Positions 3,060-28,584 of a stretch of DNA of 64,000 nt are shown in pieces. The notes under the pieces are model-generated. The model saw only the letters and a program-made list of their open reading frames with translations. It did no database searches and was not told where the DNA came from. How positions within the stretch are numbered: position 1 is the stretch's first letter; each line of letters opens with the position of its first letter. The translations under genes were made by a program, and so were the position numbers. This DNA is from a virus. Lineage: Duplodnaviria; Heunggongvirae; Uroviricota; Caudoviricetes. Location of the stretch: IMG/VR virus record IMGVR_UViG_2875713109_000001; one strand, 5' to 3'.

Positions 3060-3581
3060 TTATTTCTTTTCTGGACAAGTAGCATTTGGCTGAATTCGAG
3101 TTTCATTATCTTTAGTTGAAATAAGCACAGCAAGCCCCGTTGTAAACTGGCATGCTTTACCAACTTGAGTTGAAGTGAACACCTTAGTTCCTTCTTTATA
3201 AGTCAGTGAAACACCTTCAACAATTGTTTTATCACTAACCAAAGAACCAGCCGCTGCACCAAGAGCCGCACCACCAGTACCGCCAGCTACAGCACCCAGT
3301 GTCGATGTGCCTTTAACATTATAACCGGCAACGCCCCCAGCAACAGCTCCCAGTACCGCACCAAATGTCTGTGCCGCTTCTTTATTAGCTTTATTATCAA
3401 CTTTCACTTTAGCTGGAAGCACAGAGATAATATTGACTGTCTTTGTTTCCTGCTTCGAATTCAATTGAGCGGTATCATAAACATCGGCAGCATAATCAGC
3501 ACCGCTAGATTGACACCCAGAAAGAAGAATTGCAGATACAACAAGAGCGCATAAAGTATACTTTTTAGACATAAGAATCAT
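3060..3581 (-). CDS. lipoprotein with glycine-zipper segment
   Basis: Lipobox LLSGC after hydrophobic N-terminus (alternative ATG at 3572); G/A-rich GxxxG repeats (GAVLGAVAGGVAG...). Confidence 0.55.
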   Translation of the reverse strand: MILMSKKYTLCALVVSAILLSGCQSSGADYAADVYDTAQLNSKQETKTVNIISVLPAKVKVDNKANKEAAQTFGAVLGAVAGGVAGYNVKGTSTLGAVAGGTGGAALGAAAGSLVSDKTIVEGVSLTYKEGTKVFTSTQVGKACQFTTGLAVLISTKDNETRIQPNATCPEKK

Positions 3582-3862
3582 CCCAGAAAAACAAAAACCG
3601 GCGAGAAGTTACCACGAGAACGGAAAGTAAACAAGAATACTCCCATTGACTTATATCAAATAATCAACTTTTTATAAGCTATCCCTAACTTATTGTGTAT
3701 AGCTGAAAAGTCAGAGATAAGTTCACCATCTGCATTATTTCTTAAGTTAATAGTTTATTGCTAACTTAATTTATGTATCGACTATTGATATCCATCTTAA
3801 AGTAACAATATCCCTCTGCATTATTTTTCATCACAAATAATACATCTATTGCACTACGCTCA

Positions 3863-3879
3863 CCTGCTCTAATAAATTT
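3863..3879 (+). promoter_or_regulatory. C1 repressor operator-like site upstream of immI
   Basis: cctgctctaataaattt, 15/17 match to ATTGCTCTAATAAATTT motif that recurs at more than 15 places in the window. Confidence 0.6.
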
Positions 3880-4066
3880 GTATTTTTAAGTCGCGAATGC
3901 TATCTTTTCGCATCATATTGACCTTTTAATCGTTCAGGCTTATAGTTTCGCCGTCGTAGCAAATTCTGCGACCAGGTTTGACAGCCTGAATGATTGTGCG
4001 GACAACCGCAGATTTCCGATATTGCGGTATTTTTGTGTCCGTTAAACCGCGTTACGCCCAAATTAT

Positions 4067-4143
4067 GGTGGGGCGTGATGGGGAGGCTTCGGCCTGCTGG
4101 TTTCACAATCGCCAGTCTGTCAACCCTGTCACGTCCTGCCACC
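4067..4143 (+). ncRNA. c4: c4-like antisense regulatory RNA (about 77 nt)
   Basis: Structured segment closed by ggtgg/ccacc with UUCG hairpin; internal cacaatc and caacc are complementary to gattgtg and ggttg found both upstream (3972-3999) and at the icd RBS (4146-4183), the a/b target layout expected for c4. Confidence 0.45.
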
Positions 4144-4193
4144 TGTTTGACAGCGGGTAGCAGGTTGTTAAACCTGATTGTGAGGCCGTAACT

Positions 4194-4415
4194 ATGGTTA
4201 ATGCCAATCCTTGCGCACGCCCAGAATTCATCTGGCGTTTCTATTCCTGTAAAAAACACCACTATCACTTCGTTATCGCAGCAACTGAAGACGAAGCACG
4301 CTCTCAATTGCCTGATGGCCCCTGCATTTTTACTGCCCGTTTTTCAACTAACTCGCGCAATTCACTTAGTTACTGGAGCCTCCCCTTCTCTGCCGACGTT
4401 CAGGGGGGTTTATGA
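4194..4415 (+). CDS. icd: Icd-like small protein (73 aa)
   Basis: 73-aa ORF directly upstream of and overlapping (ATGA) the antirepressor gene; paralog at 50988-51209. Confidence 0.65.
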   Translation: MVNANPCARPEFIWRFYSCKKHHYHFVIAATEDEARSQLPDGPCIFTARFSTNSRNSLSYWSLPFSADVQGGL

Positions 4416-5446
4416 AAACACCTCTCGTCACCCGTAATGAAATAGCCGAAGCGATCGCCTTGCATACTGCCTGTATGCCGACACGGGAGATCCCCGGCGC
4501 AATTGCTAACTATTTCATGATAACCAGACGTTTTTATACCCGAACAGATAAGGCTGTGATCAACAGGCTACTGATAGCCGAGATCAGGGATTATTTGATT
4601 GAACAAGGACGTCTACGTTACGCAACAGTGGCAGCAGAAATGAGAAAGGAGGCACATAGAATGACCGGTAATAATTTAAATGTTGAAAAACCAGCACCTG
4701 TTGCTTCAGCTACGCCAGCACCAGCCCTGAATGTCATCCCCAACACCGGAGACACAATCGACAGCCAAACATTGTTGAAGATGGTCAATGAGGCACGGAA
4801 ATTATGTAGCGAAAAACCAGTTCGCAACAATGATTTCATTGCCAGAGTTAAGGATGAGCTTGAAGGAGAAACCTACGAAATTTTCGTAGGTCAAAAAAAC
4901 GGCGCAGAAATAGATATTATAACCATGACCTACAAACAAGCCCTGCGAGTTGCCGCGCGCGAGTCAAAAGCGGTCCGCCGTTCGCTGATCGACAAACTGG
5001 AAGAATTGCAGCAGGCAAACTCCCCTACCCCATCGATCCCCCAAACATTACCAGAAGCTCTACGCCTGGCTGCCGAGTTGGCAGAACAGAAAATGCAGTT
5101 GGAACAACAGCTGGTGGCCGCAGCCCCTAAAGTCGATTTTGCCGACCGGGTATCAGTGGCCAATGGAATCCTGATCGGGAACTTTGCAAAGGTCGTTGGA
5201 CTTAAGCAAAACGCCCTTTTCTCATGGTTGCGCCAGAACGGCATTCTCATGGCTTTTGGTGCGCGCAAAAACGTACCGCGCCAACAGTACATCAACGCCG
5301 GGTATTTCACAGTGAAAGAAGTGGTGCTGGATGATGAAAATGGCTACCAGATACGGCTGACGCCCCAATTAACGGGTAAAGGCCAGCAGTGGTTAACTCG
5401 CAAGCTACTTGATGCTGGTTTGTTAAAACCAGTAGCAATAGGTTAA
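4412..5446 (+). CDS. ant: antirepressor Ant (Rha-like middle region, KilA-C-type C-terminal domain)
   Basis: 344 aa; C-terminal about 130 aa shared with KilA (5611-6411) and with the 371-aa paralog at 51206-52321; immI position after c4-like RNA and icd. Confidence 0.75.
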   Translation: MKTPLVTRNEIAEAIALHTACMPTREIPGAIANYFMITRRFYTRTDKAVINRLLIAEIRDYLIEQGRLRYATVAAEMRKEAHRMTGNNLNVEKPAPVASATPAPALNVIPNTGDTIDSQTLLKMVNEARKLCSEKPVRNNDFIARVKDELEGETYEIFVGQKNGAEIDIITMTYKQALRVAARESKAVRRSLIDKLEELQQANSPTPSIPQTLPEALRLAAELAEQKMQLEQQLVAAAPKVDFADRVSVANGILIGNFAKVVGLKQNALFSWLRQNGILMAFGARKNVPRQQYINAGYFTVKEVVLDDENGYQIRLTPQLTGKGQQWLTRKLLDAGLLKPVAIG

Positions 5447-21067: not shown

Positions 21068-21965
21068 GCACTGGAAAAACATTACTATTTTTAAACTTTC
21101 TCGTGAGGCGGATCTGACCGACTTGGAAGATAAAAAGAAAATGATCCTTTTCACGCCATGCGGTAGTCAGGATATGGCCAAGTTCGGTTTTGTATCTCCA
21201 TTTGGTGATAATTCCGAAGTTATCGCTATGCATGGAAATGGTTTTATCCTTGTTGAAGCAAAGCGCGAAACAAAAATTCTTCCCCCGCCGGTTATCCAGC
21301 GAGCTATTCAAGAAAAAATTGAAAAACTCGAGCAAGAACAAGCGCGTAAACTGAAGAAAACAGAGAAGGACTCCCTGAAAGACGAAGTTCTGCATTCTCT
21401 TCTGCCACGGGCTTTTTCAAAGTTCTCTGTTATCCAGGCGATCTACGACGGTTCAACTAAACGTATCTATATCAATGCCAGCGCGCGGCAGGCAGAGGAT
21501 ATGCTCGCGCTTATGCGTAAATCTCTGGGTTCTCTTCCTGTTGTTCCCCTAAGTGTTGAAAATCCCATTGAATTAACGCTGACCGACTGGGTACGTGATG
21601 GTAGTGCTCCACAGGGATTTCAAATGGGGGATGCGGCAGAACTTAAGGCAGTGCTTGAGGATGGCGGTATTGCCCGAGTGAAAAAGCAGGACTTGGGAAG
21701 TGATGAAATATCCACACACCTGGAAGCTGGCAAGCTCGTCACTAAGTTGGCACTCGACTGGCAGAACCGCATTAAATTTACACTGGACCATAACTTCAGC
21801 CTTACCAGCGTCAAATTTGCGGATGAATTGCTTGAGCAGAACGCTGATATTGATAGTGAAGATGTTGCGCAGCGACTGGACGCAGATTTCTTCCTGTTGA
21901 CCAGTGAAATTTCGTGCCTGGTTGATGCTCTGGTAAATGCCCTTGGTGGAGAGGCTAAGCAGTGA
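21059..21965 (+). CDS. hrdC: RdgC-like recombination-associated protein
   Basis: Strong similarity to recalled E. coli RdgC along full length ([13 protein letters not shown]..., KILPPPVI..., [35 protein letters not shown]). Confidence 0.8.
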
Positions 21966-24226
21966 AAGAGCTGTGCTATGGATCTGTTTGCAGTGGAATT
22001 GAAGCCGCGAGTATTGCCTGGGAACCGTTGGGTATGCGTCCGGCGTGGTTTGCTGAAATCGAGCCTTTTCCATCTGCCGTTCTTGCGCACCGCTGGCCCC
22101 ATGTCGCCAACCTTGGCGACATGACAAAACTTGCCAAAAAAGTCCTGGCTGGGGAAATCGAATCCCCTGATGTGCTCGTCGGGGGAACACCTTGTCAGGC
22201 ATTCAGTATCGCTGGATTACGTGGTGGGCTTGATGATGAGCGTGGCGCGCTAACTTTAAAGTATGTGGAGCTTGCAAATGCAATTGACGACAAACGGGCT
22301 GAGTCATTTCTCAAACCAGCCGTTATCGTCTGGGAAAATGTCCCAGGAGTCTTGTCATCGGCAGATAACGCCTTCGGATGTTTCCTTGCCGGATTGGCTG
22401 GAGAAGATGCGCCATTTGAACCAGGTGATCGACCTGAATCAGGAAAAAGTAACGCGTTCTGGCGGTGGGATGGCAAAACCGGTTGCCATGCTCCAAAGTG
22501 GCCGCAGTGTGGTTGTATTTATGGACCGCAGCGAAAGGTGGCCTGGAGAATCCTTGATGCCCAATACTTCGGAGTGGCACAACGACGCCGACGCGTGTTT
22601 GTTGTCGCAAGTGCTCGAACAGACCTCGATCCCGCAACGGTACTTTTTGAGTTCGAAGGCGTGCGCCGGGATATTGCGCCGAGCCGAAAAAAGAAGGAAA
22701 TCGCTTCCGCCATTATTGCAAATGGCGCTGCAATCAGTGGCGAAAGCCTAAATCCATGCCTACATGCTGACATGCCACCCGGTATGAAATCGACGAAAGC
22801 CGTAAACGCTTTCAGGATGGCAGCATTTGGGGAATATATTGACGATGAAACCGCATCGACAGTAAAGGCAAGAGATTTTAAAGATGCCACTGACCTTGCC
22901 GTTTTTAGCAGCACAGGAGCAGCTTTTTGGTCAGAAGGGCATGGTACATTGCGGGCACGTGAGCAAGAAAGCCATGAGCATCTTGTTACATTGGCTTTTC
23001 CTGAGCGTATGAGCGGTACACAACATGCTGCAACTAAGAATACTTCACCATCTCTAATGGCTAAAAATCCAACAGCTGTTTGCTATGAAGTAAGAAACGC
23101 AGAAGTAGCTGTCCGCCGTCTTACCCCTGTCGAATGTGAAAGGCTGCAAGGTTTTCCTGATGGGCATACGTTGATCCCGACGGAAAAGCGTAAAAAAGTT
23201 AGTTCAGATGAACTGGCATATCTTCGCAATCACTATCCAGATTTAAGCGAAGAAGAGGCCGTGATGCTTGCAGCTGACGGACCGCGTTACAAAGCGATCG
23301 GCAATAGTATGGCAATACCAGTAATGCGCTGGATTGGCGATCGGATTACTAAGGCCGTATGTCGGCAGAAAGAAGGAAGTGAAACAAAAGAGCGAAAAGT
23401 TAAACCAGCGGCAGAATTCGAACGGTCCATATTCAAATGGGCTGGTGGAAAATTTGGTGTTCTGGAACAAATCTTTCGCTATTTGCCAGAAGGGAAGCGC
23501 CTGATTGAACCTTTCGTTGGTGGCGGAGCTGTCTTCATGAATGCCGGATACCAGGAAAATCTGCTAAATGATGTGAATGCTGACCTGATTAACTTTTACA
23601 AGACTCTGCAACGCGAGGCGCATTCACTTATCACTCTGGCACATCGTTTTTTCCTGGACTACAACACCCAGGAGGGATACTTGGCAGTACGGAATGCGTT
23701 TAACAAACAAGTCTATGATGATTTACATCGCGCAGCGGCGTTTTTGTTCCTGAACCGACATTGTTTTAACGGATTGACGCGTTACAACCAGGCCGGTGAG
23801 TTCAATGTCGGTTATGGGAAGTATAAAACTCCGTATTTCCCATTACAGGAGATGGAAGCCTTCCTCGGTGCGGAAGGGCGGTCTGAGTTTGTATGCGGTG
23901 ATTTTGCAGCGGTGATTGAAGCTGCCGGAGAAGGAGATGTCATCTTTTGCGATCCGCCGTATGAACCGCTCCCCAATACAGAGGGGTTCACGAACTATTC
24001 CGGTCATGACTTTAAGTTTGAAGAGCAAAAACGCCTGGTGTCTCTGTTGACGGATGCTCATCGTCGAGGTGCAAAGGTTCTCATTACTAACAGTGGCGCG
24101 CCAAACATCAGAGAGCTTTATCATGACAGTGGCTTCAGAGTGGAACCTCTTTTTGCCAGACGTTCTGTGTCTTGTAAGGGGGACACTCGAGGTGTAGCTC
24201 ATGACGTTTTGGGTATATTGCTCTAA
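21962..24226 (+). CDS. dmt: bifunctional DNA methyltransferase Dmt (N-terminal C5-cytosine MTase-like, C-terminal Dam-like N6-adenine MTase)
   Basis: 754 aa; [12 protein letters not shown] and ENVPG (C5 motifs IV and VI); C-terminal [13 protein letters not shown]..., DPPY (IFCDPPYEP). Confidence 0.85.
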
Positions 24227-24233
24227 TAAATTA
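24217..24233 (+). promoter_or_regulatory. C1 operator-like site at start of tRNA-ban operon leader
   Basis: attgctctaataaatta overlapping dmt stop; TAATAT -10-like hexamer 10 bp downstream. Confidence 0.6.
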
Positions 24234-24407
24234 ATTAGTGTAATATCGCCTCAATGAATCGTGATTTATAGAGCGATTTAGCTGTTAGCCGCGACAGGCG
24301 CGGCGGTAAGCATGGCTGGGCCTAGTCCTCCCAGACAAACCACCGAGTTGCCAGGTTGACCATGCGCCTAAGTGGCAACGCCGAAGTGCGTTACGAGCTT
24401 CCAGTTT

Positions 24408-24433
24408 GCCCATCTTCGGGTGGGCGTTTTTTT
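24408..24433 (+). terminator. intrinsic terminator or attenuator in operon leader
   Basis: gcccatc-ttcg-ggtgggc (UUCG tetraloop) followed by GTTTTTTT. Confidence 0.5.
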
Positions 24434-24899
24434 CAGGGTTTTCGTCATGGTTAGCGACTTTGCGGCGGTTTAGAAACTGACCATTAAAGTAAATGCAAAC
24501 GATGATCTGATGATGGTAGCGGCCTAAGAAACCAGATGCCACGGGGTATGAGTCGTCCCCCGTCAAAAAAATCGACCGCAGAGTGTCCCCGTCTGTGTAT
24601 TAGGGAACGGGGAGGCACAACAGGTAAGGGCGCTGGTGTGATTAACCAGATGAACGAGAAGGGGCCATCTGTTGGTCAGCGTCCTTTCCTGTTGCGTTTT
24701 CTTTTCAGCGTAACAGCGGTGCTTAACAGCACTTTGGGTACAGTTCCACGAATTTACGGGTATATCCCGTCATGCTGAAGGCGCTAATCACGCTGGAAGC
24801 CAGGGTTGTGCATCCCCTGTTACCGAATTGCAGCCAGGGCGCGGTGCGCCGAAAAGCATACGGAGGTGGAAGCCCTCGCCGGAGACGTACCCGGCAAGT

Positions 24900-24975
24900 G
24901 ATGGTGTAGCTCAGCGGTTAGAGCGGTTGACTGTTAATCAACGGGTCGATGGTTCAAATCCATCCACCATCGCCA
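24900..24975 (+). tRNA. tRNA-Asn (anticodon GUU)
   Basis: Cloverleaf folded by hand: acceptor gatggtg/caccatc, anticodon stem gttga/tcaac with loop ctGTTaa, T-arm gatgg-ttcaaat-ccatc, 3' CCA encoded. Confidence 0.85.
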
Positions 24976-24977
24976 AT

Positions 24978-25053
24978 GCCGGTTTAGCTCAGTTGGTAGA
25001 GCGCCTGCCTTGTAAGCAGGATGTCAGCGGTTCGAGTCCGTTAATCGGCACCA
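24978..25053 (+). tRNA. tRNA-Thr (anticodon UGU)
   Basis: Acceptor gccggtt/aatcggc, D-arm gctcagttggtagagc, anticodon stem cctgc/gcagg loop ctTGTaa, T-loop ttcgagt, CCA encoded. Confidence 0.85.
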
Positions 25054-25785
25054 GCACAACAGGTAAGGGTATTTTGCGACGCCGGAGATCGCCGAGCTTG
25101 GCAGAGGGTTCGAATCCCTACGAAGTACCCTTACCGTTGTGATGAAGTGCAGCTCTTTGAAGCAACCAGAAGATAAGCATCTGGCTTCACAACATAAACC
25201 GCAGGAACGACCAATAAACGGTAGTCCGTATGGAGAACACCCCGTTGAGGAAGAGGCCTGGCCGGAACCGTAACCGGCACTACAACGTTGAGAACACTGG
25301 CGTAACGGGGTCATATCCCAATCTACGAATAAATGTTGCGTTGCAGCGTGACAACCAGTGTTCTCAACATTGTGGTGAATGCACAGGCTGATGTGCCGCA
25401 ACTACAGTAGTGCGCGCTTTGCGGGGCTTGCTACAACCCTGTGTCGGAGTTCAGCACCGACCATCACAGTTTGATTCTCTGGCATGAGCATAACGCTGAA
25501 ATAAGTCCAGTCTGGTGCGGCCCGATCACCCGCCGTTAGCTCCACGAAACGGAGCACGTAACAGGTAAGAGCATTCTCCTGTAACGGGTTCATATCCCAA
25601 TCTACAGGTCCACCAAGAATGCTCTTTCCGTTGCGGTGAATGCGGCTAAGCGCACGCGGGGAAATGGTTATATCAGTCCATTCATTTCTCCTTGTTTCCC
25701 CGTCCACGGTGGATAACCAGCCAAAGGACACCGGGAGGCACCCGGCACCGCAGCTTTTTTATTCGTTAAATAATGGAGTGAGAGG

Positions 25786-26022
25786 ATGCAGAACAATCCG
25801 AACAAATGTCGAACGCTATGGGTGCGGTTATATATTTATGCCGTCCTCTGTTTGATTGTGTCACTGGTTCTGTATGTTTGGCTTTTGCCAAATATGATCT
25901 CATCTAACAGCACAATACTTGTATTGTTGGGAGTCCTTCTCGCGCTCATTTACCCGGCTTTCGCAGTAGTCTTTTTTCGTGAAAAAACCAGGAAATTAAT
26001 TAATGAAAAAAACGTTGATTAG
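25786..26022 (+). CDS. small membrane protein (78 aa)
   Basis: Two hydrophobic segments; overlaps start of downstream lipoprotein gene. Confidence 0.45.
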   Translation: MQNNPNKCRTLWVRLYIYAVLCLIVSLVLYVWLLPNMISSNSTILVLLGVLLALIYPAFAVVFFREKTRKLINEKNVD

Positions 26023-26830
26023 TGCAGCGATTATTTTGGGTTCTTTATGTCTGACCGGATGCGATCGGGTAGAGCCAGGTAACGTAGGGATCAAAGTAAA
26101 TAAGCTGGGGGATGATAAAGGTATCGGTGAAGTAGTTGGCGTTGGTCGCTACTGGACAGGCTTGAATACTGAAGTTTATATCTTCCCGACCTTTAAGCAA
26201 ATGAAGACATACGATGAGCCGTTCAGCTTCCAGATGAGCGACGGAACAACCATTGGTTACCACATCGGCGTAGCCTACAAGGTTGATCCAGCAAAAGTCA
26301 CAACGGTATTTCAGACCTATCGCAAAGGTGTAGATGATATTACTGATACCGATCTACGCCAGAAGGTTGCAGATGCTCTGAACCGGTTAGCCAGCAAAAT
26401 GACCACCGACAAATTTATCGACGGTGGCAAATCTGAATTGCTTGATGCAGCCCTTAAAGACATTCAGGAAGAAATGACGCCAATCGGCATTCAGGTGATG
26501 AGCCTCTCTTATGTAGGTAAGCCAGAATACCCGCCAACAGTTATTGACAGTATTAACGCCAAAGTCACGGCAAACCAAAAAACCCTGCAACGCGAGCAAG
26601 AGGTCAAACAACGTGAAGCAGAGGCCAACATGCTGCGCGCGGAAGCTGCCGGACAGGCTGATGCTATTCGCACAAAAGCCCAGGCCGAAGCTGATGCCAT
26701 TCGTTTACGTGGTGAAGCTCTGCGCCAGAACCCCGGTGTTATGGAGTTGGAAGCGATCAACAAATGGAACGGTACATTACCGCAGTATATGACCAGTAAT
26801 ACCGCTGTTCCGTTTGTTCCGGTGAAATAA
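26003..26830 (+). CDS. lipoprotein with SPFH/band-7-like domain and coiled-coil C-terminus
   Basis: Signal plus lipobox LTGC; central domain then EAEANMLRAEAAGQADAIRTKAQAEADAIR helical repeats typical of SPFH family. Confidence 0.5.
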   Translation: MKKTLISAAIILGSLCLTGCDRVEPGNVGIKVNKLGDDKGIGEVVGVGRYWTGLNTEVYIFPTFKQMKTYDEPFSFQMSDGTTIGYHIGVAYKVDPAKVTTVFQTYRKGVDDITDTDLRQKVADALNRLASKMTTDKFIDGGKSELLDAALKDIQEEMTPIGIQVMSLSYVGKPEYPPTVIDSINAKVTANQKTLQREQEVKQREAEANMLRAEAAGQADAIRTKAQAEADAIRLRGEALRQNPGVMELEAINKWNGTLPQYMTSNTAVPFVPVK

Positions 26831-26857
26831 AAGCGTAAGCAAAATTGGCAGTAATCC

Positions 26858-26933
26858 GGCCCTTTAGCTCAGTGGTTAGAGCTGGCGACTCATAATCGCA
26901 CGGTCACCGGTTCAAGTCCGGTAGGGGCCACCA
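26858..26933 (+). tRNA. tRNA with CAU anticodon, Ile2 (ileX)-type
   Basis: Near-identical over most positions to recalled E. coli tRNA-Ile2; acceptor ggccctt/aggggcc, anticodon loop ctCATaa, CCA encoded. Confidence 0.8.
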
Positions 26934-27219
26934 TATTTGGTTGTAACACGGCGTCTGGCACATGCGTCGTTAGCGGTCTGGTGACGTTAAAAGGGGGGAA
27001 CCTTGCCCCTAGCTCAGGCAACGAACCAGGTAGCCGGAATGTGCAAGCCACCGTTTGTTGTTTCTCGGGTAAAGGGATTCACCATCCTGGCGATTCGGTG
27101 TGACAGCCGGGAAGAGTCCGGCGCATTAATCCTGATTTTCTGGTGATGACTCATATCGTTAGGAGTGATTTGAGTATGCCGATTATATCTGACATTCAGC
27201 ACGCCTGGGTGGAGTGCTA

Positions 27220-28584
27220 ATGTCTGCATCCCCTCTTGAATCCATGCCAAATTCCCTTAGTGCAGAACAAGCTGTACTTGGTGGCTTAATGCTTGATAAC
27301 TGCCGCTGGGATGAAGTTGCAGATCGTATAGTTGCTGATGATTTTTATACCAGTGCTCATCGTGAAATTTTCAGTGAGATGGAGAGGTTATTAAGTCATG
27401 GCAAACCGATTGATTTGATAACACTTGCTGAAGCACTTGAACAGAACGGTAAATTAGAACGCGCCGGTGGTTTTGCGTACCTTGCGGAGATGTCAAAGAA
27501 CACGCCCAGCGCGGCAAATATTTGTGCTTATGCGGATATCGTTCGTGAACGCGCGGTTGTTCGTGAAATGATTTCCGTCGCAAATGAAATAGCCGAAGCT
27601 GGATATGCGCAGGATGGCAGGGGCAGCAATGAATTGCTAGATATGGCCGAGCGCCGCGTTTTTGAAATAGCTGAAAAACGACAAAAGAGCGGTAGTGGTC
27701 CAAAAGATATCGCCAGCATTCTCGATGCAACGGTATCTCGCATAGAAGAGTTGTTTCAGCGACCACATGATGGTGTAACGGGGCTTGATACGGGATTTAC
27801 CGATCTCAATAAGAAGACGGCAGGGCTTCAGCCGTCCGATCTCATCATTGTCGCCGCCCGCCCATCTATGGGGAAGACCACGTTTGCGATGAATCTCGTC
27901 GAAAATGCCGCAGTTCGTAACGATAAGCCCGTATTGGTTTTTAGCCTTGAGATGCCGAGCCACCAGCTGATGATGCGCTCACTGGCTTCTCTTGCACGCG
28001 TTGATCAGACTCGTATTCGGACAGGGCAACTTAACGACGAGGATTGGGCGCGGGTTTCTGGCGCAATGGGTATTCTGTTGGACAAGCAGAATATTTTTAT
28101 TGATGACTCAAGCGCCCTGACACCTACAGAGCTTCGTTCCCGCGCTCGTCGTGTTTATAAAGAAAATGGTGGTTTGAGCATGATTATGATCGACTACCTG
28201 CAACTTATGCGCGTCCCCGAGCTGCAAGATAACCGAACGCTGGAAATTGCCGAGATTTCTCGCTCACTGAAGGCGTTGGCGAAGGAATTACAAGTACCGG
28301 TGGTGGCATTGTCACAACTTAATCGATCGCTTGAACAGCGTGCGGACAAACGACCGGTAAATTCAGATTTACGTGAATCAGGAGCAATTGAGCAGGACGC
28401 AGACCTGATCATGTTTCTGTATCGCGACGAAGTTTATCACCCGGATAGCGAAATGAAGGGCATTGCCGAGGTAATTATCGGAAAGCAACGAAATGGCCCA
28501 ATTGGCACGGTGAGATTGGCTTTTAACGGCCAATACTCACGGTTTGATAACTATGCTGGTGCTGACTGGCAAGAGGATTATTAA
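27220..28584 (+). CDS. ban: DnaB-family replicative helicase Ban
   Basis: DnaB N-terminal domain and RecA-like domain with Walker A PSMGKTTF; GGTGGAG SD before ATG 27220 (track start 27214 is GTG). Confidence 0.85.
   Translation: MSASPLESMPNSLSAEQAVLGGLMLDNCRWDEVADRIVADDFYTSAHREIFSEMERLLSHGKPIDLITLAEALEQNGKLERAGGFAYLAEMSKNTPSAANICAYADIVRERAVVREMISVANEIAEAGYAQDGRGSNELLDMAERRVFEIAEKRQKSGSGPKDIASILDATVSRIEELFQRPHDGVTGLDTGFTDLNKKTAGLQPSDLIIVAARPSMGKTTFAMNLVENAAVRNDKPVLVFSLEMPSHQLMMRSLASLARVDQTRIRTGQLNDEDWARVSGAMGILLDKQNIFIDDSSALTPTELRSRARRVYKENGGLSMIMIDYLQLMRVPELQDNRTLEIAEISRSLKALAKELQVPVVALSQLNRSLEQRADKRPVNSDLRESGAIEQDADLIMFLYRDEVYHPDSEMKGIAEVIIGKQRNGPIGTVRLAFNGQYSRFDNYAGADWQEDY

What the first reader, a model, noticed from the sequence alone, without database searches (positions are those of the whole stretch)
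25786..26830. Membrane protein plus SPFH/band-7 lipoprotein embedded in the tRNA-ban operon
SPFH-domain lipoproteins organise membrane microdomains and recur in phage exclusion and defense contexts. Here one is co-transcribed with tRNAs and the replicative helicase, with a small two-TM partner overlapping its start. In P1 the equivalent locus additionally carries tciABC, which are absent here.
Basis: partly seen in the sequence, partly recalled or inferred. Interest (0 to 1): 0.35.

Follow-up and report, generated by a model that had tools for sequence, protein, structure and literature searches.

The report
Phage SPFH lipoprotein with hairpin partner
Two real, overlapping genes in a P1-like phage encode a small two-helix membrane protein and a lipid-anchored SPFH (HflK/prohibitin-like) scaffold; the pair is a widespread, already catalogued but uncharacterised phage module, and here it takes the place of P1's tciABC genes.

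Summary
Window 25786-26022 encodes a 78-aa two-helix membrane protein. Window 26003-26830 encodes a 275-aa lipoprotein with a Band_7/SPFH domain (Pfam E=1e-30; the model matches prohibitin, HflK/C, erlin and stomatin). The genes overlap by 20 nt and both are under purifying selection.

The window is a P1-like phage. The 1088-bp cassette (25761-26848) replaces P1's tciABC rather than sitting beside it. The two versions are about equally common in plasmids (189 vs 191). P1's "Plp" is an unrelated minus-strand ORF.

Identical cassettes are already deposited and annotated (RCS47 and others), and both proteins have PHROG families (1130 and 200).

What I add is that the pair is a conserved unit. At least 69 of 77 distinct SPFH genes examined have the partner upstream, and 4 of 4 distant partners lie beside a Band_7 gene. 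It occurs in P2-like, Stx, N4-like, Pseudomonas and Rhizobium phages, always among early genes.

No defence model matches. Its presence in virulent phages, and behind the C1 operator here, argues for a role in the lytic cycle.

Best guess: an inner-membrane, periplasm-facing SPFH cage with a hairpin "fence". The physiological role is unknown. Interest is modest.

The parts
24217..24232 (+). C1 repressor operator of the ban operon (Oban), overlapping the P1ban/P2ban promoters; the only upstream control element found for the cassette
   Evidence: Perfect match to ATTGCTCTAATAAATT. This stretch is about 99% identical to P1, where it is annotated as Obanab/P1ban/P2ban.
24900..25053 (+). tRNA-Asn (24900-24975) and tRNA-Thr (24978-25053), upstream members of the ban transcription unit
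   Evidence: ARAGORN; Rfam tRNA 74.5 and 72.9 bits.
25761..26848 (+). 1088-bp exchangeable cassette that replaces P1's 716-bp tciABC segment
   Evidence: BLAST against NC_005856: the flanks 24200-25760 and 26849-27300 are 99-100% identical to P1, and the interior is absent from P1. 189 plasmids carry this cassette and 191 carry tciABC.
25786..26022 (+). 78-aa helical-hairpin membrane protein (PHROG 1130). TM1 is about residues 15-33 and TM2 about 44-62. The conserved turn has invariant P35 (25888-25890) and S39 (25900-25902) and near-invariant G49 (25930-25932). Both termini are basic.
26003..26830 (+). 275-aa SPFH/Band-7 lipoprotein (PHROG 200). Signal peptide with lipobox L17-T18-G19-C20 (26051-26062) and Asp at +2. 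Band_7 domain at residues 22-208 (26066-26626). Long coiled-coil helix at 178-242 (26534-26728). Conserved C-terminal KWNGTLP tail.
26003..26022 (+). 20-nt overlap of the stop region of the small gene with the start of the SPFH gene (likely translational coupling)
   Evidence: Coordinates. Homologous pairs overlap by 4-20 nt in most loci.
26858..26933 (+). tRNA with anticodon CAT (called Met by ARAGORN; annotated trnI, tRNA-Ile2, in P1), 27 nt after the SPFH stop codon
27214..28584 (+). ban, DnaB-like replicative helicase, downstream member of the unit
25024..25731 (-). plp (25024-25401) and upl (25402-25593, ORF extendable to 25731) on the opposite strand, between the tRNAs and the cassette. 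This is the real P1 'Plp' and is unrelated to the SPFH lipoprotein.
   Evidence: ORFs; P1 annotation of the homologous positions.

Best explanation
A two-gene accessory membrane module of phages.

The SPFH protein is exported, lipid-modified at Cys20 and, because of Asp at +2, retained on the periplasmic face of the inner membrane. There it oligomerises through its SPFH domain, long coiled coil and C-terminal tail into an HflK/C- or prohibitin-like cage.

The co-translated 78-aa hairpin protein has both ends in the cytoplasm and a conserved P-x-x-x-S turn at the periplasmic surface. It supplies the transmembrane 'fence' that classical SPFH proteins carry in their own N-termini, so that together the two proteins delimit a patch of inner membrane.

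In this P1-like phage the pair is made from the C1-repressed ban transcription unit, that is, early after induction or infection and not in the lysogen. Its most likely job is to organise or protect the inner membrane of the infected cell: keeping it intact and energised against premature failure (holin, abortive-infection effectors), or sequestering a host membrane protein.

Shown: both genes are real, the fold is SPFH, the lipobox and Asp+2 are present, the pair is conserved, the genomic position is as stated, and the cassette is allelic with tciABC.

Inferred: localisation, cage formation, contact between the two proteins, timing of expression, and the physiological role.
For: Fold and architecture:
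- Pfam Band_7 E=1e-30.
- The AF2 core (residues 65-240, pLDDT about 80) has the SPFH beta/alpha unit plus a 65-residue helix.
- The top Foldseek PDB hits are all cage-forming SPFH proteins (prohibitin, HflK/C, erlin, stomatin, flotillin, MVP), probability 1.00. A profile search of PDB finds HflK, HflC and prohibitin-2.

Anchor: lipobox LTGC. Asp is at +2 in 103 of 108 close homologues that have a lipobox. The E. coli '+2 rule' is from my own knowledge.

Partner:
- Hairpin model and purifying selection.
- All tested partners belong to PHROG 1130.
- P35 and S39 are invariant and G49 is near-invariant across sequences only 12-29% identical to the window's partner.

Coupling:
- 69 of 77 distinct SPFH genes have the partner just upstream, mostly with a 4-20 nt overlap. 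Five of the 8 'misses' have it with a variant motif.
- 4 of 4 distant partner homologues sit next to, or one gene from, a Band_7 gene.
- One natural partner-SPFH fusion exists.

Lytic role:
- The pair occurs in virulent N4-type, N4-like and Seunavirus phages.
- In temperate phages it sits in early operons: P2-like between cox and A, Stx2 between cI and xis-int, and here behind Oban.
- The neighbours are replication, nucleotide-metabolism or host-takeover genes.
Against: - There is no experimental datum for any phage SPFH protein in the papers searched.
- The model is only moderately confident overall (pLDDT 64.5; residues 14-63 and 245-275 are below 50).
- No multimer or complex prediction could be run, so the cage and the partner contact are analogy.
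- Arg at +3 may weaken Asp+2 retention (own knowledge). Non-enterobacterial homologues have other +2 residues.
- The promoter scan is insensitive: it also missed the annotated Pban promoters.
- A terminator-like hairpin lies between Pban and the cassette.
- The sample of loci is biased towards Enterobacterial and Pseudomonas prophages.
- The 'protection' role is not distinguished from the rivals by any result here.
Confidence: 0.45

Rival explanations
1. Superinfection exclusion or anti-phage defence. The membrane complex blocks DNA entry by, or aborts infection of, competing phages.
For: - Inner-membrane or periplasmic location is typical of exclusion proteins (own knowledge: T4 Imm/Sp, P1 Sim, HK97 gp15).
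- The alternative occupant of the same slot is TerB-like TciA with small membrane proteins. A paper notes that ter operons have been implicated in phage inhibition.
- Early expression would fit exclusion during the lytic cycle.
- The slot is one of eight hypervariable regions of P1-like elements.
Against: - PADLOC gave no match for the SPFH protein and only E=0.023 for the partner.
- No literature link was found.
- The pair lies behind the C1 operator with no promoter of its own detected, so it is probably off in lysogens.
- The family is found in hundreds of virulent phages of Gram-negative and Gram-positive bacteria and of archaea. This calls for a generic role rather than a receptor-specific one.
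Confidence: 0.2
2. HflK/C mimic. The cage captures or competes for the host FtsH protease (or another inner-membrane protease). This would stabilise phage or host proteins that FtsH degrades.
For: - HflK and HflC are among the best structural and sequence matches, and the only NCBIfam hits are hflC and hflK.
- The predicted side of the membrane, periplasmic, is the same as for HflK/C.
- In Stx2 phages the pair lies between cI and xis-int. By analogy with lambda, that places it in the leftward early (pL) operon, where lambda keeps its FtsH inhibitor cIII (own knowledge).
Against: - NCBIfam scores are far below the equivalog cut-offs (24.7 vs 134.4 bits and 23.3 vs 159.4 bits).
- There is one SPFH gene, not a K/C heteropair, and no N-terminal TM helix.
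- Prohibitin, erlin and stomatin match equally well, so the similarity is at superfamily level.
- Nothing here tests FtsH binding.
Confidence: 0.15
3. Lysis-timing or secretion helper. The scaffold organises holin, antiholin or Sec-dependent lysis enzymes in the membrane.
For: In Staphylococcus Kayviruses the distant homologue MbpS (about 26% identical) lies between the endolysin gene lysK and tgl, next to the holin-like MbpV. The authors suggest it may aid export of Tgl.
Against: In P1-like, P2-like, Stx, N4-like and the metagenomic loci the pair is among early replication or nucleotide-metabolism genes, not lysis genes. The Kayvirus partner is a different kind of protein.
Confidence: 0.1
4. 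Lysogenic-conversion lipoprotein acting on the animal host (a TLR2 agonist or virulence factor) rather than on phage biology.
For: A prophage-encoded HflK/C-like protein of Pasteurella multocida (PM0222) is released in outer-membrane vesicles, triggers TLR1/2 signalling and contributes to virulence.
Against: - TLR2 stimulation is generic for bacterial lipoproteins (own knowledge).
- Asp+2 predicts inner-membrane retention.
- The pair is probably repressed in the lysogen.
- The family is common in virulent phages of plant and environmental bacteria.
- Homology of PM0222 to this family was not tested.
Confidence: 0.05

Closest known systems
E. coli HflK/HflC (FtsH-modulating SPFH cage)
   Same: SPFH domain, long coiled coil and C-terminal tail. 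The bulk of the protein is on the periplasmic side of the inner membrane. Among the best structural matches.
   Different: One gene rather than a K/C heteropair. A lipid anchor instead of an N-terminal TM helix. A separate 2-TM partner. 14-20% identity. NCBIfam scores are far below the equivalog cut-offs. No evidence of FtsH binding.
Prohibitin, erlin and stomatin cages (eukaryotic SPFH)
   Same: Same fold and element order. These are the top Foldseek hits, at probability 1.00.
   Different: Similarity is at superfamily level only (13-20% identity). Different membranes and anchors.
Bacterial and archaeal SPFH-NfeD operons (e.g. QmcA-YbbJ, YqiK-YqiJ, Pyrococcus stomatin PH1511-PH1510)
   Same: An SPFH gene in a two-gene operon with a membrane-protein partner.
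   Different: The partner here is a 60-90 aa hairpin with no NfeD/OB domain. None of 16 diverse partners hit Pfam NfeD. The partner lies upstream of the SPFH gene and overlaps it. The SPFH protein is a lipoprotein.
PHROG 200 ('lipoprotein') plus PHROG 1130 ('membrane protein') of other phages: RCS47, vB_EcoM-Ro157c2YLVW, P88, Stx2 phages, Erwinia S6, N4-type 3HA13, Pseudomonas 5400, Rhizobium LG08
   Same: The same two families in the same order and overlap. The cassette is 96.5-100% identical in several deposited P1-like genomes.
   Different: Nothing of substance; this is what the finding is. None of these has a tested function.
P1 TciA/TciB/TciC (TerB-like protein plus two small membrane proteins)
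   Same: Occupies exactly the same slot between upl and trnI in the ban unit. It is also a soluble or peripheral protein plus tiny membrane proteins, and also of unknown function.
   Different: No homology. TciA is a TerB domain and TciB is DUF3927/PHROG 1470. hhalign of the partner profile against TciB gives 1.7% probability.
Kayvirus MbpS/MbpV
   Same: A phage SPFH protein adjacent to a small membrane protein.
   Different: About 26% identity. It lies next to lysis genes. MbpV is a single-TM, holin-like 102-aa protein.

Membership tests
SPFH / Band 7 superfamily (Pfam PF01145) | Band_7 domain scoring above Pfam's gathering threshold | tested here: met
   107.6 bits against a cut-off of 23.6, E=9.7e-31, residues 22-208.
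SPFH / Band 7 superfamily (Pfam PF01145) | SPFH alpha/beta fold followed by a long coiled-coil helix | tested here: met
   The AF2 model has strands 65-94 and 163-175, helices 96-161 and helix 178-242. Foldseek probability is 1.00 to prohibitin, HflK/C, erlin and stomatin. Target-normalised TM-score is 0.71-0.79 to isolated stomatin SPFH domains, at 2.4-3.6 A rmsd.
SPFH / Band 7 superfamily (Pfam PF01145) | N-terminal membrane anchor | tested here: met
   A signal peptide with lipobox L-T-G-C20 replaces the usual TM helix or hairpin. Lipidation itself was not tested.
SPFH / Band 7 superfamily (Pfam PF01145) | Assembly into a large ring or cage oligomer | not testable with these tools
   Only monomer prediction is available.
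HflK / HflC (FtsH modulators) | Equivalog-level sequence match | tested here: not met
   TIGR01932 hflC 24.7 bits against 134.4; TIGR01933 hflK 23.3 bits against 159.4.
HflK / HflC (FtsH modulators) | Two paralogous SPFH subunits, each with an N-terminal TM helix | tested here: not met
   A single SPFH gene with a lipobox. The neighbour is a 78-aa non-SPFH hairpin.
HflK / HflC (FtsH modulators) | Physical association with FtsH | not testable with these tools
   -
SPFH-NfeD operon | Partner protein carries an NfeD (OB-fold) domain | tested here: not met
   No NfeD hit at E<=1 for the window protein, nor at E<=0.1 for 16 diverse partners.
Phage pair PHROG 1130 + PHROG 200 | Both proteins match the two PHROG profiles | tested here: met
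   E=6.4e-16 and E=2.3e-113.
Phage pair PHROG 1130 + PHROG 200 | Partner immediately upstream on the same strand, usually overlapping, with the conserved P-x-x-x-S...G turn | tested here: met
   A 20-nt overlap here. 69 of 77 distinct SPFH genes, plus 5 with a variant motif. Invariant P35 and S39 and near-invariant G49.
Known anti-phage defence systems (PADLOC-DB 2.0) | Match to any defence-system protein model | tested here: not met
   No hit for the SPFH protein. The partner gives only E=0.023 to the candidate model PDC-M18B.
P1 tciABC / Ter-type module | TerB-domain protein and DUF3927 protein | tested here: not met
   The cassette replaces tciABC. There is no TerB or DUF3927 hit for the window proteins. 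hhalign against TciB gives 1.7% probability.

The most novel reading that the evidence does not exclude
The PHROG 1130 + PHROG 200 pair is a 'split' SPFH nanocompartment. The lipoprotein builds the periplasmic dome, and a 1:1 co-translated hairpin protein builds the transmembrane palisade. Unrelated virulent and temperate phages deploy it early in infection as a generic counter-measure that keeps the host inner membrane intact and energised, for example against membrane-targeting abortive-infection effectors or premature holin firing. It would then be a membrane-level anti-defence or host-takeover device, and the smallest genetically tractable SPFH cage known.
Probability: 0.25. Interest if true: 0.6.

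Novelty: new variant of a known kind. Interest (0 to 1): 0.33.

Why it matters
Despite recent cage structures, what SPFH proteins actually do in bacteria is still poorly defined, and nobody has assigned a function to the many phage-encoded ones. This is a compact, non-essential, two-gene version. It is naturally allelic with another cassette in an easily manipulated phage (P1), so clean swap experiments are possible.

For annotation, three points follow. The small partner gene is often not called: under the matches, the E. coli RefSeq and PLSDB gene tables list only the SPFH gene, and it is unannotated in the Stx2 record. The label 'serine protease' still attached to many copies has no support from any domain or fold match found here. 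And 'Plp' should not be confused with this lipoprotein.

None of this is surprising to a specialist. The sequence itself is already in hundreds of records.

Tried and rejected
- Homology between the partner and P1 TciB, which would have meant both alleles share a small membrane protein: rejected. hhalign probability is 1.7% and the PHROG and Pfam families differ.
- NfeD-type partner: no hit.
- Defence-system membership: no PADLOC hit.
- A promoter of its own for the cassette: none found by the consensus scan, and the sequence just upstream of the ATG leaves no room for one. The scan is insensitive, since it also missed Pban.
- A terminator at the left junction: the hairpin at 25731-25745 followed by a T-run folds no better than shuffled sequence (z=-0.58).
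- Rfam on 24000-27400: only the three tRNAs, a sub-threshold STnc100 match and a sub-threshold Plastid-ycf2 match on the minus strand over tRNA(CAT). The P1 'dicF-like' region gave no Rfam hit at E<=0.01.
- A possible third allele of the slot (pE2855-2, which matches only the first 123 nt): it is an IS1203 insertion and deletion, not a new cassette.
- Eight literature searches for a function of phage SPFH proteins, and for a description of the tciABC/SPFH swap, found only statements that the function is unknown. The P1 genome paper (PMC523184) is not held.
- A scan seeded with the Rhizobium LG08 protein returned a single locus.
Full report
**What the window is.** The region 24200-27300 is 99.9% identical over its whole length to deposited P1-like phages (MH422554, MH445380/1). 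It is 96.5-99.6% identical to vB_EcoM-813R1, RCS47 and vB_EcoM-Ro157c2YLVW. The gene order is dmt (21962-24226), tRNA-Asn, tRNA-Thr, plp and upl on the minus strand, the two ORFs of the finding, a tRNA with anticodon CAT, ban (27214-28584) and dbn.

**Check of the observation.**
- The ORFs are at exactly the stated coordinates. They are 25786-26022 (78 aa) and 26003-26830 (275 aa), both on the + strand, overlapping by 20 nt in different frames.
- The large protein matches Pfam Band_7 at E=9.7e-31, 107.6 bits against a cut-off of 23.6. It matches PHROG 200 'lipoprotein' at E=2e-113.
- Its N-terminus is a signal peptide ending in the lipobox L-T-G-C20, followed by Asp. Asp occupies +2 in 103 of the 108 close homologues that show a lipobox. 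By the E. coli +2 rule (my knowledge, not tested) this predicts retention in the inner membrane, facing the periplasm.
- The small protein matches PHROG 1130 'membrane protein' at E=6e-16. It has two hydrophobic segments, 15-33 and 44-62, and is modelled as a helical hairpin, H5-38 and H43-77.
- Against a 71%-identical Salmonella P1-like homologue, its dN/dS is 0.19 in frame. The two other frames give about 1.6 and contain stop codons.
- The SPFH gene has dN/dS 0.02 against a 93%-identical copy.
- Both genes are therefore real and under purifying selection.

**Fold.** An AlphaFold2 model built on 32 homologues has mean pLDDT 64.5 but about 80 over residues 65-240. It shows the SPFH beta/alpha unit followed by a 65-residue helix, 178-242. 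Foldseek against the PDB returns only SPFH cage proteins at the top: prohibitin, HflK/C, erlin, stomatin, flotillin and major vault protein. Probability is 1.00. Target-normalised TM-scores to isolated stomatin SPFH domains are 0.71-0.79, at 2.4-3.6 A rmsd. A profile search of PDB sequences finds HflK, HflC and prohibitin-2 at E about 1e-3.

**Relation to P1.**
BLAST against NC_005856 shows 24200-25760 and 26849-27300 at 99-100% identity, while 25761-26848 (1088 bp) has no counterpart. It sits exactly where P1 has the 716-bp tciA-tciB-tciC segment.
- The junctions are sharp. The left one is about 25 bp before the first start codon. The right one is 9 nt before the tRNA.
- P1's Plp ('putative lipoprotein') and Upl are minus-strand ORFs. 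They are also present here at 25024-25401 and 25402-25593 and are unrelated to the SPFH protein.
- In PLSDB, 189 plasmids carry the SPFH cassette over at least 80% of its length and 191 carry tciABC. Nearly all are about 90-100 kb and non-mobilisable.
- This matches a published survey that lists tciABC as one of eight hypervariable regions and says 'nearly one-half' of P1-like elements lack it (PMC9603915).
- Among 5,426 complete E. coli genomes, 460 hold a copy of the SPFH gene similar enough for megablast, and 192 hold the full P1-type cassette.
- TciB (DUF3927, PHROG 1470) is not related to the small partner; hhalign gives 1.7% probability.

**The pair is a conserved phage module.**
- The same two genes, in the same order and usually overlapping by 4-20 nt, occur in several unrelated phages:
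  - the P2-like phage P88, between cox and the replication gene A;
  - Stx2 phages, between cI and xis-int, where the small ORF is not annotated;
  - the N4-like Erwinia phage S6 and an N4-species coliphage;
  - Pseudomonas phage 5400 and Rhizobium phage LG08.
- In phage 4MG and one Pseudomonas phage the small gene is two genes upstream.
- Eight of the nine homologous small proteins tested (all but that of Rembedalsseter) hit PHROG 1130.
- Across the loci I held, 69 of 77 distinct SPFH sequences have an upstream two-TM ORF with the turn motif P-x-[LM]-[IV]-S-[SA]-x-[DS]. Five of the eight misses have it with a slightly different motif.
- In alignments of partners only 12-29% identical to the window's, P35 and S39 are invariant and G49 is nearly so.
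- The reverse test also holds. Four diverse partner homologues (Dyella and three metagenomic contigs) all lie directly upstream of, or one gene from, a Band_7 gene. Their neighbours are SNF2 helicase, ThyX and ribonucleotide reductase genes.
- A profile search of 1.84 billion representatives finds 511 partner clusters, almost all 60-90 aa.
- One hit is a 365-aa natural fusion of partner, linker and SPFH that retains an internal lipobox. It was seen on a single 4.7-kb contig, two genes from an Acb2/Tad1-hairpin protein. This is weak 'Rosetta-stone' support.
- The SPFH family itself is in 795 phage records. These include Kayviruses, crAss-like and Lak phages and haloviruses.

**Expression context.**
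- The only C1 operator near the cassette is the perfect ATTGCTCTAATAAATT at 24217-24232. This is the annotated Oban overlapping P1ban/P2ban in P1.
- The consensus scan found no sigma-70 promoter in 24100-27300. It is insensitive, because it missed Pban too. The sequence just upstream of 25786 leaves no room for a promoter plus ribosome-binding site.
- No terminator-like site lies between the cassette, the tRNA and ban.
- One good terminator-like site (24404-24426 plus T7) follows the dicF-like region, upstream of the tRNAs.
- I therefore infer, but have not shown, that the pair is part of the C1-repressed early unit and is silent in the lysogen.
- This, together with its presence in strictly virulent phages and in the early operons of P2-like and lambdoid phages, points to a function in lytic growth.

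**Mechanism.**
- What is supported: a lipid-anchored SPFH protein with all the elements that form cages in solved relatives, made together with a hairpin membrane protein whose conserved residues sit at the periplasmic turn.
- What I infer: the lipoprotein forms the dome on the periplasmic face of the inner membrane. The hairpin supplies the transmembrane palisade that HflK/C-type proteins carry in cis. The overlap, or the fusion, ensures equal amounts of the two.
- The physiological role is open. I favour organisation or protection of the infected cell's inner membrane.
- The rivals are superinfection exclusion, an HflK/C-like effect on FtsH, lysis timing (as suggested for Kayvirus MbpS, PMC7150955) and a host-directed lipoprotein effect (Pasteurella PM0222, PMC9872710).
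- PADLOC has no model for the pair. Papers state that the function of phage SPFH genes is 'poorly understood' (PMC7760394) or 'remains unclear' (PMC13239085).

**Comparison and novelty.**
- The protein is a member of the SPFH superfamily, with domain and fold both tested and met.
- It is not HflK or HflC. NCBIfam scores are 24.7 and 23.3 bits against cut-offs of 134.4 and 159.4, there is one gene, and there is no TM helix.
- It is not an SPFH-NfeD pair, because the partner has no NfeD domain.
- It is not a catalogued defence system.
- The exact cassette is already deposited and annotated in many genomes, and both proteins have PHROG families. The finding is therefore not a discovery of new sequence.
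- What is not described in the literature I could search is the tight, bidirectional conservation of the pair and its allelic relation to tciABC.
- I rate it an uncharacterised variant of a known kind, of modest interest.

Noticed in passing
window 24341-24442, with the terminator-like hairpin at 24404-24426 plus a T-run: The stretch annotated 'dicF-like region' in P1 is conserved here and ends in a strong intrinsic-terminator-like hairpin (8-bp stem, 7 T) between Pban and the tRNAs. Rfam gave no DicF hit at E<=0.01. How transcription reaches the tRNAs, the cassette and ban past this site is unclear.
   Followed up: partly
window 25632-25752 (+): A sub-threshold Rfam match to the sRNA family STnc100 (37.8 bits against a gathering score of 47, E=6e-6). 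It lies antisense to the upl ORF, just left of the cassette junction.
   Followed up: no
window 26858-26933: ARAGORN calls the tRNA with anticodon CAT tRNA-Met, but P1 annotates it as trnI (tRNA-Ile2, ileX-like). The cassette's right junction is only 9 nt upstream of it.
   Followed up: no
window 25024-25053 (- strand against + strand): The minus-strand plp ORF (25024-25401) overlaps the 3' end of tRNA-Thr (24978-25053). In this allele the P1upl/P2upl promoters annotated in P1 lie in the replaced segment, so plp and upl would need a different promoter here. The upl ORF is extendable to 109 aa (25402-25731).
   Followed up: no
L094 (AP026456, plasmid pMTY1886_NA2) 2026-3070 against window 25786-26830: Mosaic divergence inside the cassette. 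The small gene is nearly identical (dS 0.04, no amino-acid change), while the adjoining SPFH gene has dS 0.5. This implies a recombination breakpoint near the gene boundary.
   Followed up: partly
L169 (NZ_AP018798, pE2855-2) 3501-4879: In this P1-like plasmid the cassette is cut after its first 123-148 nt by an IS1203 element. The SPFH gene and ban are absent from the stretch shown, and tail-related genes follow directly after the IS. It also has an extra tRNA-Tyr between tRNA-Asn and tRNA-Thr.
   Followed up: partly
L087 (N4-species phage vB_EcoP_3HA13) 907-1221: The gene immediately upstream of the pair matches Pfam PF17420 'Superinfection exclusion gene product 17' (E=1e-55) and PHROG 1510. 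In the Vi01-like phage PhiSH19, the gene next to the SPFH gene is likewise annotated as a superinfection exclusion protein (PMC3220722).
   Followed up: partly
L175 (metagenomic contig SRR31638522_16550) 218-1807: A single-ORF fusion of the hairpin partner and the SPFH lipoprotein (365 aa, internal lipobox retained) lies two genes downstream of an Acb2/Tad1-hairpin (anti-CBASS/anti-Thoeris sponge) family gene. It was seen on one contig only, so a sequencing or gene-calling artefact is not excluded.
   Followed up: partly
window, 13 sites (e.g. 5525, 20695, 24217, 40219, 50632, 53765): Thirteen matches to the C1 operator consensus with at most 2 mismatches (0.07 expected by chance). These map the C1 regulon of this phage. 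There are none between 24233 and 34453.
   Followed up: no
Many database records (e.g. LC567830, FO818745, AP026456): The SPFH lipoprotein is still labelled 'serine protease' in many records. No protease domain was found: the Pfam, NCBIfam and fold-search matches are all SPFH-type (a weak PHROG hit, E=8e-4, carries the label 'protease'). The small partner gene is missing from the E. coli RefSeq and PLSDB gene tables under the matches and from the Stx2 phage record examined.
   Followed up: yes
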